A DNA stretch of 64,000 nucleotides from a virus. Lineage: Duplodnaviria; Caudoviricetes. The stretch's first letter is position 1; every line of letters begins with the position of its first letter. The notes beneath the pieces were generated by a model, which saw only the letters and a program-made list of their open reading frames with translations, searched no databases and was not told the origin of the DNA. Positions 3,231-32,221 of this stretch are shown in pieces. The translations under genes and the position numbers were made by a program. The stretch spans positions 1 through 64,000 of IMG/VR virus record IMGVR_UViG_3300036784_000120; one strand, 5' to 3'.

Positions 3231-3502
3231 CCGTCACCCTGGAAACCCGTGTCACCTGCCCGGAATGCGGGCACAAGATCCGGTTCATCGCGGTGACCAC
3301 GGTGCGGGTGAACAAGCGCAGCATCCGGGACATCGGCACCGGTCCCGTCATGCTCGGCGCACTGGAGGACTGGCGGTGCCCCGGCTGCCGCACGGAGATC
3401 CCCCGGGACAGGCCGCTGGACCGGGAACCCTACCGGCTCGTGGCGGAGGATGCGGTGAGGGTGGCGGAGTACCGGAAGGCGAAGTGGGGGATCGAGGAAT
3501 GA
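3227..3502 (+). CDS. Zinc-ribbon hypothetical protein
   Basis: ATGA overlap; CPEC and CPGC pairs. Confidence 0.6.
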   Translation: MTVTLETRVTCPECGHKIRFIAVTTVRVNKRSIRDIGTGPVMLGALEDWRCPGCRTEIPRDRPLDREPYRLVAEDAVRVAEYRKAKWGIEE

Positions 3503-28066: not shown

Positions 28067-28645
28067 TCAGCTGAACCAGTTGGTGGCGCGCAACTGCCCG
28101 ATGATCGAGTTGCAGCAGTTGGTCAGCTGGCTGAGCGTCCCCGTGCCGGCGATGGTGCCGGGTGAGGTCTGCCTGGTTATGCCGGTACCCGAGAGGAAGA
28201 ACGCTCCGCCAGAGATGTTCAGCGAATCCGCTGTCGTCGCGGCGTCAACACGCAGCGGCCCGCCGGGGCCGCCGGACCCGTAGAGCGTGCCTGTGACGGC
28301 AAGGTTCCCGCAGGTGACAGGGCCGGTGAACGTCCCGCCCGAGATCGGCATCGCGCCGTTGGCCGTGGTCTGCGCGCTGTTAGCGGTGCTCTGCGCGGTG
28401 TTGGCCGTGCTCTGCGCGGTCGACACGTTGCTGTTGGTGGTGCCGAGCTGGGTCACCACCCCGTTGACCCGTGTCGTAAGAGCGCGGGTCTGGGCCGTGT
28501 TGGCGGTGCTCGCCATCGCCGAACCCCAGAAGAACACCAGCAGCGCGAGGATCACCAGGTGACCGGGCAGGAACCAGGCCACTCCCGCGGCCACGGTCAG
28601 CGCGAGCTTCTTCATCGCCGCCACCGACGGCAAGGGTCCGGTCAT
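28067..28645 (-). CDS. Tail-module protein with N-terminal hydrophobic segment and AQSTANT repeats
   Basis: GAAAGGA RBS; AQSTANT x3; MPISGGTFTG fibre-like motif. Confidence 0.6.
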   Translation of the reverse strand: MTGPLPSVAAMKKLALTVAAGVAWFLPGHLVILALLVFFWGSAMASTANTAQTRALTTRVNGVVTQLGTTNSNVSTAQSTANTAQSTANSAQTTANGAMPISGGTFTGPVTCGNLAVTGTLYGSGGPGGPLRVDAATTADSLNISGGAFFLSGTGITRQTSPGTIAGTGTLSQLTNCCNSIIGQLRATNWFS

Positions 28646-28666
28646 CGGAAATCCTTTCGCACGGAT

Positions 28667-28959
28667 ACTGCGCCGCTCGGGGCGGGGAGGAGCGCGCCCT
28701 CTCGCCGATCGGTAGGATGAACACGTCCGGTGACGGACCCGCCGCAGGGCATGCGGTGGCAGCGCGGCAAGCCTTCTAGCGCACTCAGGCACGGCGATGA
28801 CCCGCGAACCTCTTGCACACGGCTGACACCCGCAAGGGACGCCTGCTTCGCAGGGGCGGCGATACCGCGATAGCCAAGCGGTGCCGCCCCTGCACTATGC
28901 TGGCCACTGTCAGCTGTGTGCAGGGAATCCGCGCCCTTCAGGGCGATGGAGGATGTCAA
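28667..28959 (+). mobile_element. Non-autonomous IS200/IS605-type mini-element (no tnpA/tnpB)
   Basis: Right end GAAT(28925)-hairpin CGCCC-TTCA-GGGCG-GAGG-ATG-TCAA(28959) matches IS608/ISDra2 RE architecture; imperfect left hairpin 28681-28706; left boundary inferred. Confidence 0.7.
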
Positions 28960-28976
28960 CACAGGGTCCGATCGAA
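28725..28976 (+). ncRNA. TnpB-type omega RNA (reRNA) scaffold plus 17-nt guide
   Basis: -10 TAGGAT at 28713; nested stems TGCACAC.GCTGACA/TGTCAGC.GTGTGCA and GCAGGGGCGGC/GCCGCCCCTGC; ends at TCAA followed by CACAGGGTCCGATCGAA. Confidence 0.62.
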
Positions 28977-29023
28977 CTGGATATGAGTTCGATATTGGCC
29001 GCATTTCACAGGGTCCGATCGAA
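28960..29023 (+). repeat. 17-bp direct repeat CACAGGGTCCGATCGAA (28960-28976 and 29007-29023)
   Basis: Exact copies separated by 30 nt. Confidence 0.95.
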
Positions 29024-32000
29024 GTAGTAGGCCGCGAAGTAGGCGAGCGACACGTTCGGGGCGGTTGCGTCCGCGCAGTAGACGAACAGCTGGTTGTCGC
29101 CGTCGGCAGGCTCGACGAACAGGGTGCCGCCCGACATGTACGGGGTGTTGTCCATCACGCTGATCGCGTCGGGCCGGCCGGCCTGGCTGCCCATGATGCG
29201 GCCGACGGACACGTTCGGGTCGGGGGCATCCAGGAAATAGGTCAGGTAGCCGCTGCTCGGCTCGTTGATGACGACGGTCTGACCCATCGTGTCGAGGAAC
29301 AGGCAGTCGAAAAACCGATCTGACGTGTTGCTGTCTGTCACGGATACGGTGTAGTAGCCGCCTGTGTTGTCCGGTGCGACCGCTTTCGGCGGCAGCGTCA
29401 GGACCCCGGCGGTGACGATCCCGTTAGTGACCTGGTTCGGGGCGATCGAGATCGGCAGCGTGCTCACCGGGTAGCCGGGGCCGCCGGCGTACTCGTACTG
29501 GGTGACGGTGACCGTGATCGTCCTCGGGGTGCCGCTCCCCGATCCGCCGGACCACGAGGAGTTGATCAGGTACAGGGTGTAGGTGCCGGCGAAGTCAGCG
29601 TTCACGCCGGTGACCGGCTGAGGCATCGTGTACATGTGGGTGCCGTCCGGCGCGTCCGACCCGCCCCCGACCGACACCATCGGCTGGAATGTTTTCGTTG
29701 CACCGAGCGGCGGCCGGTGCACGATGAGGGTTTTGAACGCGGCCGGCGCGTACGGGGTGATCTTCAGCTGGCCGTTGCCGCCGTTGCCGCCTGTCTTGGC
29801 CGTGCCGGAGGAGTACGCGCCGCCGCCGCCGCCGCCGGGCGCTGACCCGTTCGACCCGTTGTTGCCCGCCGACCCGGCACCGGCACCGCCCGCACCGCCG
29901 CCGGTGACCGCTGCGCCGCCGGCGTTAGTCGGTGCCCCGGTGGTGGCGGGGTACTGGAGAGTGACCTGCCCGGCCGCGCCTGCACCGCTCGTGTTAGCCG
30001 AGTTGTACGTGCCGCCTCCGCCGCCGCCAGGCGCCGAGCCCGCGGTCCCGTTGCCGGACTGCGCACCCGATGACGCACCGCCGCTGCCGCCTCCGCCCGG
30101 CGCGGTACCGCCGCCCGGGCTGCTGCCCGCGTTACCCGCCGCGCTGCTGCCCGCCGACGACCCGCCGCCGCCCGCGTACGGGTAGGCGTTGCCGCCGTGG
30201 CCGCCCGCGTAGCCGGTGGTGCCCGTGCCTCCCGTGCCGCCGTTGCTCGGGCTGCCGAACGTGTTGCCCAGCCCGCGGCCGCCGGGCTGGCCGATGACCT
30301 GGTGGCCGCCGTCCCCGGTGAAACTGGACAGGGCACCGTTGTTTCCGTTCGCGCCGCCTGTGACGCCGGTGCCGCCGCCGCCGACCACGACGTTGTAGCT
30401 GTTGCCGGCGGTGACCGGGACAACGCCGATGCGTGTCTCGCCGCCGCCTCCGCCCTGCCCGTTGCCGCTGCCCGCCCCGGAACCGCCGGAGCCGCCAGCA
30501 CCCTGGACGATGGCTGTCACCTGCGTGACACCCGCCGGGCACACCCATGGTGTGGTGCCGACCGAGGTGAAAACCTGCGAGCCGGTGCCCATCGGCGTGT
30601 TGCCTGCTGAGGTGCTGCCGCCGGAGGACCCGCCGCCGCCGCCGAACGTGTTCGCGGGGTTAGCGCGGCCAGCTCCGCCGGGGTACTCGACGGAGCTCAG
30701 CGACCCGAACCCGCCGAACCCCGCAGTGGTGCCGTTCGTCGCCACCGACCCGCCGCCGTCAGCGGTGACCTGCAGCGTGCCGCCCGGCGCCGGCCCGAAC
30801 ACTGTGTCCTGCCCGCCGTTCGGGGACGCGCCCGCCGTGTCGCCGGCGCCGACAACATACGGGATGACCTGCGCGGCCGTGGCAGGGAACACGGTTTCCG
30901 CGGCGTACTCGGCGCCGCCGCCGCCCGCTCCGACCCCGGCGACGGTCATGCCCGCGCCGGCGCCGCCGCCGCCGGTCGCCTCCACTTTCAGCCACGCCGT
31001 GTTCGACGGGACCGTGTAGTTGCCGGGGCCCGCCGCAGTGATGGTGGTCGGGGTGCCCGGCACCGGGGACTGCTGGAACGACATCGACGCGGGGGCCCTG
31101 GCGGTGCCCTGCACCCCGTAAATGGTGTAAACAGCGCCGCGGACAACCGGGTTGACCTGCTGGCTGCCCGGGTAGGCGGTCAGCGCGTCAATGTAGGCGG
31201 TGACCCATGACAGGCGCCGCACCCGGTCCTGCCGGGACACGACCTCCAGGCTGTAGGAGGCCACCGACCCGTAGTTGAACGTGCTGCTGCCCTGCGGCAC
31301 ACCGATCGTGACGCGGGAGAAGACGGGGGACTGCGCCGAGTTCGCGACGGGCAGCAGCAGATGCGACCTGGAGAACGACAGCGTGTTCCCGCCCGAGTCA
31401 GTCAGGGTGATATACACGCCGGTGCCGTGGATTTTCCCGTGATATTCGAGGTTCGCGTAATACCTGCTGCCGAGCCCGAGCCACATCTGCAGCGAGGTCA
31501 TCCCGGTCAGGTTCAGCGGCGACCCGAACGACGCGCTGTAGGTCAGCGGCGTGAACTGGCCGCCGGGGTCGCCGAACCCGTCGGGGTCCCAGCAGCAGGA
31601 GGTCGGCCCGACGACACACTGGCTGGACTGGAAGCACTGCACGGAGGAGATGGTGGAGAAGTTGTCGAGCACCACCGGGGCCGGCGGCGGCGGCACCGTC
31701 GGCGTGGTGGGGACCGGTGCGGAGAAACTGACCTGCGACTGGGTGTCGGACCGGCCGTAGGGCAAAGCGGGGATGGTCAGCTGGATCTGCATCCCGATGA
31801 GCTGCTTCTCCAGCAGCGTGTTGAAGACCGGGACGGTGGGATGCGCGCGGAAACAGTCGAACACCAGCGGCAGCGGCGTGTTCCCGGGGTTCCCGGCGGT
31901 GGCGTCCCTAGTCCACACGATGGTGAAGTAGTCCTGGTCGATCGCCTGCTCGAGCAGTTCCCTGGCCGCAGCCAAAGTGCGGCGGTCCGGTGCGGTGATC

Positions 32001-32221
32001 CACACCGGCAGCTTGATGGTGCGGTTGGAGGCGCGGCGCCCGAACGGCCGTTCCCCGTCGAGCAGCAGGCTGGCTACGAAGTCGGTGGTCGGCTGCGGTG
32101 CCCCCGGGTCAGCGCCGGGCTGCAGCCGGAACATGGCACCGGGGCACAGCGGGTTGACCGACGCGACCTGACCGCCGAGCAGCTCAATAGTGTTCGCGAT
32201 GACGAGAGAGTCGAACCCCAT
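29006..32221 (-). CDS. Minor tail protein with glycine-rich domains (distal-tail position)
   Basis: Directly after tape measure; RASNRTIKLPV N-terminus; GGGGAG-rich repeats. Confidence 0.8.
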   Translation of the reverse strand: MGFDSLVIANTIELLGGQVASVNPLCPGAMFRLQPGADPGAPQPTTDFVASLLLDGERPFGRRASNRTIKLPVWITAPDRRTLAAARELLEQAIDQDYFTIVWTRDATAGNPGNTPLPLVFDCFRAHPTVPVFNTLLEKQLIGMQIQLTIPALPYGRSDTQSQVSFSAPVPTTPTVPPPPAPVVLDNFSTISSVQCFQSSQCVVGPTSCCWDPDGFGDPGGQFTPLTYSASFGSPLNLTGMTSLQMWLGLGSRYYANLEYHGKIHGTGVYITLTDSGGNTLSFSRSHLLLPVANSAQSPVFSRVTIGVPQGSSTFNYGSVASYSLEVVSRQDRVRRLSWVTAYIDALTAYPGSQQVNPVVRGAVYTIYGVQGTARAPASMSFQQSPVPGTPTTITAAGPGNYTVPSNTAWLKVEATGGGGAGAGMTVAGVGAGGGGAEYAAETVFPATAAQVIPYVVGAGDTAGASPNGGQDTVFGPAPGGTLQVTADGGGSVATNGTTAGFGGFGSLSSVEYPGGAGRANPANTFGGGGGSSGGSTSAGNTPMGTGSQVFTSVGTTPWVCPAGVTQVTAIVQGAGGSGGSGAGSGNGQGGGGGETRIGVVPVTAGNSYNVVVGGGGTGVTGGANGNNGALSSFTGDGGHQVIGQPGGRGLGNTFGSPSNGGTGGTGTTGYAGGHGGNAYPYAGGGGSSAGSSAAGNAGSSPGGGTAPGGGGSGGASSGAQSGNGTAGSAPGGGGGGTYNSANTSGAGAAGQVTLQYPATTGAPTNAGGAAVTGGGAGGAGAGSAGNNGSNGSAPGGGGGGAYSSGTAKTGGNGGNGQLKITPYAPAAFKTLIVHRPPLGATKTFQPMVSVGGGSDAPDGTHMYTMPQPVTGVNADFAGTYTLYLINSSWSGGSGSGTPRTITVTVTQYEYAGGPGYPVSTLPISIAPNQVTNGIVTAGVLTLPPKAVAPDNTGGYYTVSVTDSNTSDRFFDCLFLDTMGQTVVINEPSSGYLTYFLDAPDPNVSVGRIMGSQAGRPDAISVMDNTPYMSGGTLFVEPADGDNQLFVYCADATAPNVSLAYFAAYYFDRTL

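What the first reader, a model, noticed from the sequence alone, without database searches (positions are those of the whole stretch)
28667..28976. Protein-free IS200/IS605 mini-element that preserves a complete TnpB-type omega RNA with its own promoter
Seen: this intergenic segment ends in GAAT-hairpin(CGCCC TTCA GGGCG)-GAGG-ATG-TCAA. It folds into nested stems (TGCACACGGCTGACA/TGTCAGCTGTGTGCA; GCAGGGGCGGC/GCCGCCCCTGC), has a TAGGAT -10 at 28713, and encodes no transposase or nuclease. Known: IS608 and ISDra2 right ends have a GAAT guide tetranucleotide, a subterminal hairpin and a TCAA cleavage site. TnpB omega RNA is transcribed from the tnpB 3' end through the right end and uses the flanking bases as guide. 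The ~235 nt from the putative start to TCAA is the expected scaffold size. Its 5' part (GCCGCAGGGCATGCGGTGGCA, AAGHAVA in frame) resembles a tnpB C-terminal remnant. Inference: the phage carries a stand-alone guide-RNA gene, antisense to its late operon, that could load a TnpB or nuclease-dead TldR supplied in trans.
Basis: partly seen in the sequence, partly recalled or inferred. Interest (0 to 1): 0.88.

Follow-up and report, generated by a model that had tools for sequence, protein, structure and literature searches.

The report
Gene-less TnpB guide-RNA mini-transposon in phage
A 314-base jumping element that has lost its genes but keeps both transposon ends, a promoter remnant and the full guide-RNA scaffold of the RNA-guided nuclease TnpB sits between two tail genes of a soil actinomycete phage; it is a well-supported example of an element type already described, and this scan has met the type in other phages before.

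Summary
Window 28646-28959 (+) is a protein-less IS200/IS605 derivative, a PATE.

- **Right end:** the last ~40 nt are about 90% identical to the right ends of IS609 and of haloarchaeal and actinomycete tnpB elements.
- **tnpB remnant:** the "AAGHAVA" block is 95% identical to DNA that encodes exactly that TnpB C-terminus in an intact actinomycete tnpB.
- **Scaffold:** it is collinear with the 3' ends of four intact tnpB genes and shows strong covariation (28 of 72 pairs have compensatory changes).
- **Mobility:** two soil actinomycete MAGs hold many copies of the same ~300-nt element in unrelated flanks, always bounded by TCAT and TCAA.
- **Empty site:** contigs of related phages in three soil metagenomes join 28644 directly to 29006.
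- **Missing partners:** the 127.8-kb phage has no tnpB and no tnpA. Cognate-type TnpBs occur in the MAGs that carry the element.

Expression and use by a TnpB in trans are untested. One feature is unexplained: the insertion also contains 47 extra bases, a 17-nt copy of the target plus a 30-nt AT-rich filler. The kind is known (Meers 2023), and this scan has found it in other phages, so novelty is modest.

The parts
28642..28645 (+). TCAT: conserved target tetranucleotide (TnpA cleavage site CL, inferred TnpB TAM). Its CAT is the ATG of the 192-aa gene on the - strand.
   Evidence: All PATE copies and three full tnpB elements start directly after (G)TCAT. The empty-site joint in relatives falls here.
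28646..28959 (+). Protein-less IS200/IS605 mini-element (PATE), 314 nt
   Evidence: Homology to 8 or more copies in unrelated flanks begins and ends exactly here.
28646..28692 (+). Left end. Guide-position tetranucleotide GATA at 28664-28667 (family majority GAAA). LE hairpin 28668-28687, with two mismatches at its foot. On the - strand its first bases read an AAAGGA Shine-Dalgarno 7 nt before the ATG of the 192-aa gene.
   Evidence: Alignments A3 and A5 with PATE and tnpB-element left ends.
28713..28718 (+). TAGGAT, a -10-like hexamer left over from the tnpB promoter. Predicted start about 28725.
   Evidence: Aligns with TAGGAT 6 nt before the tnpB ATG in L173. TANNNT at this position in 8 of 11 copies. 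The sigma-70 consensus scan found nothing.
28739..28812 (+). 5' half of the omega-RNA scaffold, a remnant of the tnpB 3' coding end (AAGHAVAAR...). Stem 28739-28746 with 28752-28759, then a three-helix stack closed by 28762-28766 with 28802-28806 and followed by the conserved GCGAACCTC motif (28804-28812).
   Evidence: 38 nt are 95% identical to the intact tnpB of L168, where they encode TAAGHAVAARG. Helices 5-8 are conserved with compensatory changes.
28813..28924 (+). Long nested hairpin specific to this PATE subfamily (short in tnpB-linked relatives). Its apex, 28864-28883, is 19/20 identical to the zinc-finger coding segment of tnpB in L171.
   Evidence: (helices 9-13; 16 pairs with compensatory changes).
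28925..28959 (+). Right end: guide tetranucleotide GAAT, imperfect hairpin 28929-28949, linker, cleavage site TCAA.
   Evidence: About 90% identical to the right ends of IS609 and of haloarchaeal and actinomycete tnpB elements.
28960..28976 (+). Right flank: the would-be 17-nt guide of the omega RNA. First copy of a perfect 17-nt direct repeat.
   Evidence: It lies directly 3' of TCAA, where TnpB guides lie (established knowledge; PMC10055086).
28977..29006 (+). 30-nt AT-rich filler (43% G+C), unique in the phage. Bases 28987-28993 pair with 28970-28976.
   Evidence: Absent from the empty site of related phages. No second copy in the phage or in five actinomycete genomes.
29007..29023 (+). Second copy of the 17-mer: the true 3' end of the tail gene (...FDRTL, stop at 29006-29008 on the - strand). 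It is preceded by ATTT, not TCAT.
29006..32221 (-). 1071-aa glycine-rich minor tail / tail-fibre protein, upstream neighbour on the - strand.
   Evidence: Pfam Gly_rich_2; PHROG 863 and 416, tail.
28067..28645 (-). 192-aa membrane / alanine-zipper protein, downstream neighbour on the - strand. Its ATG is the target TCAT.

Best explanation
Window 28646-28959 is a non-autonomous IS200/IS605-family element (a PATE). It was derived from an actinomycete tnpB-only insertion sequence by deletion of nearly all of tnpB.

It keeps:
- the left-end and right-end hairpins that a Y1 transposase (TnpA) recognises;
- the leaderless-type tnpB promoter remnant;
- the last ~70 nt of tnpB plus the right end, which together form the omega-RNA scaffold.

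Shown: it entered the phage 3' of TCAT, exactly at the overlapping stop/start (TGATG) of two tail genes, in antisense orientation.

Inferred: a ~250-nt + strand RNA starts near 28725 and ends in the flank, so its guide is 28960-28976. A TnpB of the same family made by the host (the phage has none) could load this RNA. It would then cut DNA that reads TCAT followed by the guide sequence. That is the uninterrupted allele carried by related soil phages. Such cutting would favour retention and spread of the element in mixed infections, the selfish homing role shown for TnpB elements in bacteria. No benefit to the phage is needed.

Confidence in the identity is about 0.95. Confidence that the RNA is made and used in this way is about 0.35-0.4.
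For: - **Right end:** 87-95% identical over ~40 nt to right ends in 923 plasmid records, including IS609. It directly follows tnpB in H. turkmenica pHTUR02. The motif occurs in more than 120 genome contigs, and the window's variant occurs only in actinomycetes.
- **Same element elsewhere:** the ~300-nt protein-less element is present many times in two actinomycete MAGs. The best copy is 80% identical over nearly full length. Homology starts at TCATC, ends at TCAA, and the flanks are unrelated.
- **Origin from tnpB:** intact TnpB genes (L168, L171, L173, L174, L139; Pfam HTH + OrfB_IS605 + TNB) carry the same left end after GTCATC, the AAGHAV-coding hairpin, GCGAACCTC and the same right end.
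- **Structure:** 92.6% of cells are paired. 28 pairs have changes on both sides, against 15.4 +/- 2.3 in shuffles (0 of 500 reach it) and at most 7 in slid controls. Invariant G-U pairs and the fold z-scores point to the + strand.
- **Promoter:** a TANNNT hexamer is conserved at the position of the tnpB -10.
- **Empty site:** related phage contigs in three soil metagenome runs (one of them possibly the window's own source sample) skip from 28614-28644 to 29006, with 0-12 other letters in between.
- **Partners in trans:** the MAGs that hold the element also hold intact cognate-type TnpBs, and one has nine Y1 TnpA matches.
- **Concept:** PATEs encoding omega RNAs used in trans are described (PMC10055086). 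A PATE expressed from an archaeal virus is reported (PMC10544981).
Against: - There are no expression data.
- The phage has no tnpB and no tnpA, and its host is unknown. Any TnpB partner is therefore hypothetical.
- The consensus promoter scan found nothing, and three of the eleven copies compared lack TANNNT.
- The window's left-end hairpin has two mismatches at its foot, its guide tetranucleotide is GATA rather than the family's GAAA, and one right-end stem pair is broken. The copy may no longer be mobile.
- The scaffold carries a ~110-nt hairpin that tnpB-linked relatives lack. Its compatibility with TnpB is unknown.
- No Rfam family matches.
- The extra 47 nt (28960-29006) is not explained by simple peel-and-paste insertion.
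Confidence: 0.6

Rival explanations
1. Inert fossil. The element jumped in once from a host chromosome and is now a silent, decaying passenger. It makes no functional RNA and no TnpB uses it.
For: - The left-end hairpin and its guide tetranucleotide are degraded, and one right-end pair is broken.
- There is no tnpA or tnpB in the phage.
- The scan found no consensus promoter.
- Solo right-end remnants of the family exist elsewhere, e.g. L152 behind an amine oxidase gene.
Against: - The scaffold helices and a 29-nt block are invariant or compensated across copies that are only 72-80% identical overall.
- In five other viral contigs the left end has decayed while the TANNNT hexamer, scaffold and right end are kept.
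- This pattern suggests selection on the RNA part rather than free decay.
Confidence: 0.3
2. Domesticated phage RNA. The phage keeps the cassette for its own use, for example as:
- an antisense regulator of the tail operon;
- a guide for a nuclease-dead TnpB relative (TldR-like);
- a decoy that ties up host TnpB.
For: - It is antisense to the tail genes.
- Its guide matches the phage's own tail-gene 3' end at 29007-29023, which lacks the TCAT motif.
- Several phage copies keep promoter, scaffold and right end but lose the left end.
Against: - Related phages lack it at this site, so it is dispensable.
- No TldR or TnpB gene is present in the phage.
- The self-match is most simply a duplicated flank.
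- No evidence exists that TnpB acts against phages.
Confidence: 0.07
3. A structured element of the tail-operon mRNA (- strand), such as a processing site or terminator, unrelated to transposons.
For: It lies between two co-directional tail genes and is highly structured.
Against: - The - strand fold is not better than shuffles (z = -1.36).
- The conserved G-U pairs exist only on the + strand.
- No terminator was found.
- The sequence is homologous to transposon ends and to tnpB.
- Related phages lack it.
Confidence: 0.01

Closest known systems
PATE-like minimal IS200/IS605 elements encoding omega RNAs (Geobacillus stearothermophilus; Meers et al. 2023, PMC10055086)
   Same: No protein genes. 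Left and right ends shared with tnpB elements. The omega-RNA scaffold is kept. Proposed to depend on TnpA and TnpB supplied in trans.
   Different: This one is an actinomycete/actinophage family with a TCAT target. It has an extra ~110-nt hairpin in the scaffold. It lies in a phage that has no tnpB or tnpA at all, and a 47-nt flank duplication plus filler accompanies it.
PATEs of Haloquadratum walsbyi and other haloarchaea (Dyall-Smith et al. 2011, PMC3119063)
   Same: Near-terminal palindromes and no inverted terminal repeats. Derived from IS605/IS1341-type elements by core deletion. Some retain the C-terminal coding remnant of tnpB. The terminal ~37 nt of the window element are about 90% identical to haloarchaeal right ends.
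   Different: Different domain of life and host. Outside the right end there is no detectable sequence similarity.
PATE in the archaeal tailed virus HRTV-DL1 (PMC10544981)
   Same: A protein-less PATE inside a virus genome. It is also present in the host, and its 3' part is transcribed antisense to an annotated ORF.
   Different: That one is archaeal, 489 bp, and has expression data. Here the virus is a bacteriophage and no RNA data exist.
IS608 / IS609 (IS200/IS605 family, IS605 group)
   Same: GAAT guide, subterminal imperfect hairpin, 6-nt linker and TCAA cleavage site 10 nt from the hairpin foot. The element inserts 3' of a tetranucleotide without the classical target duplication (PMC3201880).
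   Different: No tnpA and no tnpB. The target is TCAT instead of TTAC. The left cleavage site is 22 nt, not 19 nt, from the hairpin foot.
TldR guide RNAs (nuclease-dead TnpB relatives; recalled from Wiegand et al. 2024, not read here)
   Same: An omega-like RNA encoded on a phage that could guide a TnpB-family protein.
   Different: No TldR or TnpB gene is nearby or anywhere in the phage. The guide is simply the transposon flank. Nothing indicates repression.

Membership tests
IS200/IS605-derived PATE | Subterminal imperfect palindromes at both ends that resemble each other; no terminal inverted repeats | tested here: met
   The LE hairpin (28668-28687) and RE hairpin (28929-28949) share the ...TTCAG/TCGG...GGCG..GGAGGA core.
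IS200/IS605-derived PATE | Right end with a guide tetranucleotide 5' of the hairpin and a cleavage tetranucleotide about 10 nt 3' of it | tested here: met
   GAAT ... TCAA, with cleavage 10 nt from the foot. About 90% identity to IS609 and tnpB-element right ends.
IS200/IS605-derived PATE | Insertion 3' of a fixed tetranucleotide | tested here: met
   TCAT precedes the window copy, at least 8 other copies and 3 full tnpB elements. The family's left guide GAAA differs from the right guide GAAT at the position where TCAT differs from TCAA. The IS608 base-pairing rule applied here is recalled, not tested.
IS200/IS605-derived PATE | No target-site duplication | tested here: inconclusive
   Seven chromosomal copies have none. 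The window copy is followed by a 17-nt copy of the target plus a 30-nt filler, which simple insertion does not produce.
IS200/IS605-derived PATE | Multiple copies in unrelated flanks, and an empty site in relatives (evidence of mobility) | tested here: met
   6 and 13 matches in two MAGs. Five further viral contigs carry it. Empty-site contigs occur in three soil runs.
IS200/IS605-derived PATE | Too short or too degenerate to encode a transposase | tested here: met
   314 nt. No PF01385, PF07282 or PF01797 signal. tblastn with a TnpB gave nothing.
TnpB omega RNA | Derived from the tnpB 3' end plus the right end, with the guide taken from the flank | tested here: met
   Collinear with the 3' ends of four intact tnpB genes. 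The AAGHAV-coding block is 95% identical to L168.
TnpB omega RNA | Conserved secondary structure supported by covariation | tested here: met
TnpB omega RNA | Transcribed as a stable RNA | not testable with these tools
   No RNA data were available for this stretch.
TnpB omega RNA | Bound by a cognate TnpB and directs TAM-dependent DNA cleavage | not testable with these tools
   No tnpB in the phage. Candidate partners exist only in actinomycete MAGs.
Rfam RNA families | Match to a curated covariance model | tested here: not met
   No hit at gathering score. Only chance-level hits at E up to 10.

The most novel reading that the evidence does not exclude
Actinophages may carry promoter + omega-RNA + right-end cassettes that borrow the host's abundant TnpB to cut rival alleles. 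The guide-length flank duplications next to the phage copies would then be natural scars of such TnpB-induced breaks, repaired by copying from a donor plus end joining.

The duplications seen:
- the window: 17 nt plus a 30-nt filler;
- L212: 12 exact nt (about 16 of 20 with mismatches), directly after TCAC;
- L207: 9 + 6 nt with an 11-nt AT-rich filler, directly after TCAT.

Their lengths, roughly 12-20 nt, lie near the 15-21 nt cutting distance of TnpB (recalled from the TnpB literature). None was found at 7 chromosomal copies or, above chance, at about 140 other right ends.

The plainer alternative is that compact phage genomes only tolerate insertions in which a duplication has restored the neighbouring gene. 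In the window this is the native stop. In L212 it would be the putative start codon, and in L207 a Shine-Dalgarno-like stretch; neither of those two genes has a family match.
Probability: 0.15. Interest if true: 0.75.

Novelty: new member of a known kind. Interest (0 to 1): 0.35.

Why it matters
- It adds a clean, well-delimited example, with an empty site, parent-type elements and covariation, of a guide-RNA-only transposon in a high-G+C soil phage that has no nuclease gene of its own.
- If host TnpB really loads phage-borne omega RNAs, these elements would act as small gene drives between competing phages. They would be a natural case of RNA-guided nuclease activity split between virus and host.
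- The family also supplies a compact, covariation-supported omega-RNA scaffold and a predicted TCAT TAM for actinomycete TnpBs.
- The element type itself is already known, and this scan has met it repeatedly.

Tried and rejected
- **Rfam:** no family at gathering score; only chance-level hits at E up to 10.
- **Phage collection:** BLASTN of 28600-29050 gave no match.
- **Right-end pattern in viral contigs:** the exact window-type pattern gave no match.
- **Protein-based search for close phage relatives:** only distant, low-complexity matches, so no comparative locus came from this route.
- **The 17-mer in viral contigs:** one hit, L016, in an unrelated lower-G+C contig. Judged chance.
- **tblastn of a haloarchaeal TnpB against the region:** nothing. 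The remnant is too short and only became visible with actinomycete tnpB DNA.
- **Sigma-70 promoter and intrinsic terminator scan:** none found.
- **Sequencing runs:** no RNA holder was listed, so nothing can be said on expression.
- **The 30-nt filler:** unique in the phage. One 3-mismatch hit in a Rugosimonospora MAG lies inside an unrelated coding region. Judged chance.
- **Insertion at start codons:** I considered that the element specifically targets them (sufB in L164). The frequency seen is about what survival of intergenic TCAT insertions would give, so no claim is made.
They join 28644-28646 to 29006-29008.

Full report
**Setting.** The window is the first 64 kb of a 127,789-bp IMG/VR virus record rated complete. 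The DNA occurs in soil metagenomes. The finding lies in a 360-nt gap between two - strand tail-module genes. One is a 1071-aa glycine-rich minor-tail / tail-fibre protein (29006-32221). The other is a 192-aa membrane / alanine-zipper protein (28067-28645).

**Observation.**
- GAAT at 28925-28928, an imperfect hairpin at 28929-28949, a 6-nt linker and TCAA at 28956-28959.
- The two nested inverted repeats, and TAGGAT at 28713.
- The + strand folds far better than shuffles (z = -3.66). The - strand does not (z = -1.36).
- Rfam has no matching family.

**Is it an IS200/IS605 end?** Yes.
- BLASTN against plasmids matched window 28919-28965 at 87-95% identity in 923 records. These include IS609 (insQ = tnpB) in Klebsiella and E. 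coli, and haloarchaeal megaplasmids.
- In H. turkmenica pHTUR02 the match begins 17 nt after the stop of an annotated TnpB gene.
- The alignment shows a nearly invariant terminal ~37 nt.
- A degenerate pattern for this end hit more than 120 genome contigs: mostly Halobacteria, one Burkholderiales MAG and several actinomycetes. The window's one-base-longer variant occurred only in actinomycetes.
- The geometry equals that of IS608: guide 5' of the hairpin foot, cleavage 10 nt 3' of it (PMC3201880).

**It is one member of a mobile, protein-less family.**
- Two uncultured actinomycete MAGs (G001, G002) hold many copies of the same ~300-nt element. The best is 80% identical to the window over nearly its whole length.
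- In a nine-copy alignment, homology begins exactly at TCATC (window 28642) and ends exactly at TCAA (28959). The flanks are unrelated.
- None of the copies has a TnpB or TnpA domain next to it.
- The family is patchy: 6 of 201 genomes sampled from the order of G002 had any match.

**It derives from tnpB elements and keeps their omega-RNA region.**
- A 38-nt block of the element (about 28739-28767) is 95% identical to DNA in L168. There it lies inside an intact 396-aa TnpB (HTH + OrfB_IS605 + TNB) and encodes ...NAARNIRDGTAAGHAVAARG.
- G001 and G002 each encode an intact TnpB 63-65% identical to that protein, with the same 3' architecture.
- The left ends of three full elements (L173, L174, L139) start after GTCATC and carry a hairpin like the window's.
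- The region from the AAGHAV hairpin to TCAA was aligned for four tnpB-linked elements, two short PATEs and three window-type PATEs. It is collinear: stem 1, a three-helix stack (one closing helix with two nested helices) followed by GCGAACCTC, a variable centre, then the right-end hairpin. 13 of 29 shared pairs show compensatory change.
- The window-type subfamily has an extra ~110-nt nested hairpin in the variable centre.

**Structure statistics.** On eight PATE copies, 72 predicted pairs are 92.6% paired. 28 pairs have changes on both sides, against 15.4 +/- 2.3 in shuffles (0 of 500 reach it) and at most 7 when partners are slid. Invariant G-U pairs place the structure on the + strand.

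**Promoter.** The consensus scan found nothing. However, the window's TAGGAT aligns with an identical hexamer 6 nt before the tnpB ATG of L173, a leaderless-type arrangement. A TANNNT hexamer sits at the aligned position in 8 of 11 copies compared (window, L151, L208, L210, L211, L212, L173, L174). It is absent in L143, L147 and L137. The bases that follow resemble the first codons of tnpB. A promoter remnant is therefore plausible but not shown.

**Empty site.** Contigs of related phages were laid on the window.
- One contig (run X3, 1371 nt) joins 28644 directly to 29006, with a 2-nt ambiguity.
- A second (X2) joins 28632 to 29006 with 12 substituted letters that end in ...GGTCA.
- A third (X1, possibly the window's own source sample) joins 28614 to 29006 with 3 letters between.
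- The uninterrupted allele thus reads ...GGTCAT|CACAGGG.... On the - strand the tail-gene stop TGA overlaps the ATG of the next gene.
- This fits insertion 3' of TCAT. It also shows that the target TCAT + guide exists in relatives. Table 3 lists no difference between 29006 and 29044, although it was truncated.

**What is not explained.** Relative to the empty site the phage has 361 extra bases: the 314-nt element plus 47 nt. The 47 nt consist of a perfect 17-nt copy of the target (28960-28976) and a 30-nt filler of 43% G+C that is unique in the phage. The second 17-mer (29007-29023) is the true gene end and is preceded by ATTT. The result is that the tail gene keeps its native stop. A simple insertion would have added one Cys and borrowed the stop from TCAA.

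Two of five other viral copies show a similar thing on the left side.
- L212 has 12 exact nt (about 16 of 20 with mismatches) of its right flank repeated directly after TCAC. This would restore a putative GTG start plus four codons.
- L207 has 9 + 6 nt repeated after TCAT, with an 11-nt AT-rich filler. This would restore a Shine-Dalgarno-like stretch before an ATG. Its exact 9-nt match alone is borderline against the shuffle null; the position directly after TCAT is what makes it notable.
- Neither of these two neighbouring genes has a Pfam match.

Seven chromosomal copies and about 140 other right ends show nothing beyond chance. Two explanations remain open. The duplications may be scars of break repair, since their lengths are close to the TnpB cutting distance. 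Or they may simply be the insertions that selection lets a compact phage genome keep.

**Partners.** The phage has no tnpB or tnpA. The only weak TNB hit is a generic zinc ribbon. G002 has 49 TNB matches and nine Y1 TnpA matches. G001 has 23 TNB matches and essentially no TnpA. The host of the phage is unknown. The closest element copy, in G002, is only a hint.

**Comparison with what is known.** PATEs were defined in Haloquadratum (PMC3119063). Meers et al. state that PATEs often encode omega RNAs that must be used in trans by TnpB from other elements (PMC10055086). An expressed PATE in an archaeal virus is reported (PMC10544981). This scan has already logged the same kind in other phages (41 notes hold the search words; the eight shown all describe it), some with guides matching empty sister alleles. 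I confirm the repeat, but the empty site that note proposed differs from the one seen in related contigs.

**Verdict.** Function in trans is untested. This is a new member of a known kind. Its modest extra interest comes from the flank duplication with filler, the absence of any nuclease gene in the phage, and the loss of left ends with retention of promoter, scaffold and right end in phage copies.

Noticed in passing
window 28646-28660 (- strand); L137, L143, L147, L151, L208: On the - strand, the first bases of the left end of many copies read a Shine-Dalgarno-like motif (AAAGGA, GGAGG, GGGAG, GGAAGGA) 7-8 nt before the ATG contained in the target TCAT. An insertion just upstream of a start codon therefore brings its own ribosome-binding site. 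Full tnpB elements (L173, L139) lack this motif.
   Followed up: partly
L164:1413-1634 (- strand) and L155: A shorter (~200 nt) PATE subfamily, with a small central hairpin, sits directly 5' of the start codon of a sufB gene (Pfam SUFBD_core, E = 2.9e-87) in two actinomycete MAGs.
   Followed up: partly
window 28864-28883; L171 (tnpB zinc-finger region); L170: The apex of the long central hairpin is 19/20 identical to the tnpB segment encoding NRESQAVF in L171. That segment also forms a hairpin there, upstream of the AAGHAV stem. In the window-type PATE this hairpin lies downstream instead, so the scaffold looks rearranged.
   Followed up: partly
L207, L208, L210, L211, L212 (IMG/VR contigs): Five other viral contigs carry window-type protein-less elements. 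Three more (L205, L206, L209) carry full tnpB genes with the same AAGHAV block. In most of the phage PATEs the left-end hairpin is deleted or decayed, while the TANNNT hexamer, scaffold and right end remain.
   Followed up: partly
(plasmids and genome contigs): The terminal ~37 nt of the right end are about 90% identical across Enterobacteriaceae (IS609), Halobacteria, a Burkholderiales MAG and Actinomycetes. That is unusually strong cross-domain conservation for a transposon end.
   Followed up: no
L152:1467-1537 (G001:C18): A solo right-end remnant (97% identical over 37 nt, about 70 nt by profile) lies directly behind a flavin amine oxidase gene, with no element body.
   Followed up: no
window 3245-3409 (+): A small ORF with two CxxC pairs gives weak hits to many zinc-ribbon families, including the TnpB TNB domain (17.9 bits in the six-frame search, 20.1 bits in the Pfam scan; both below the 26.3-bit cut-off). 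It is a generic zinc ribbon, not a TnpB.
   Followed up: partly
window 28970-28993 (+): The 3' part of the would-be guide (28970-28976) pairs with 28987-28993 in the filler, giving a 7-bp hairpin with a 10-nt loop just after the guide. It could mark an RNA 3' end, but it is not a canonical terminator.
   Followed up: no
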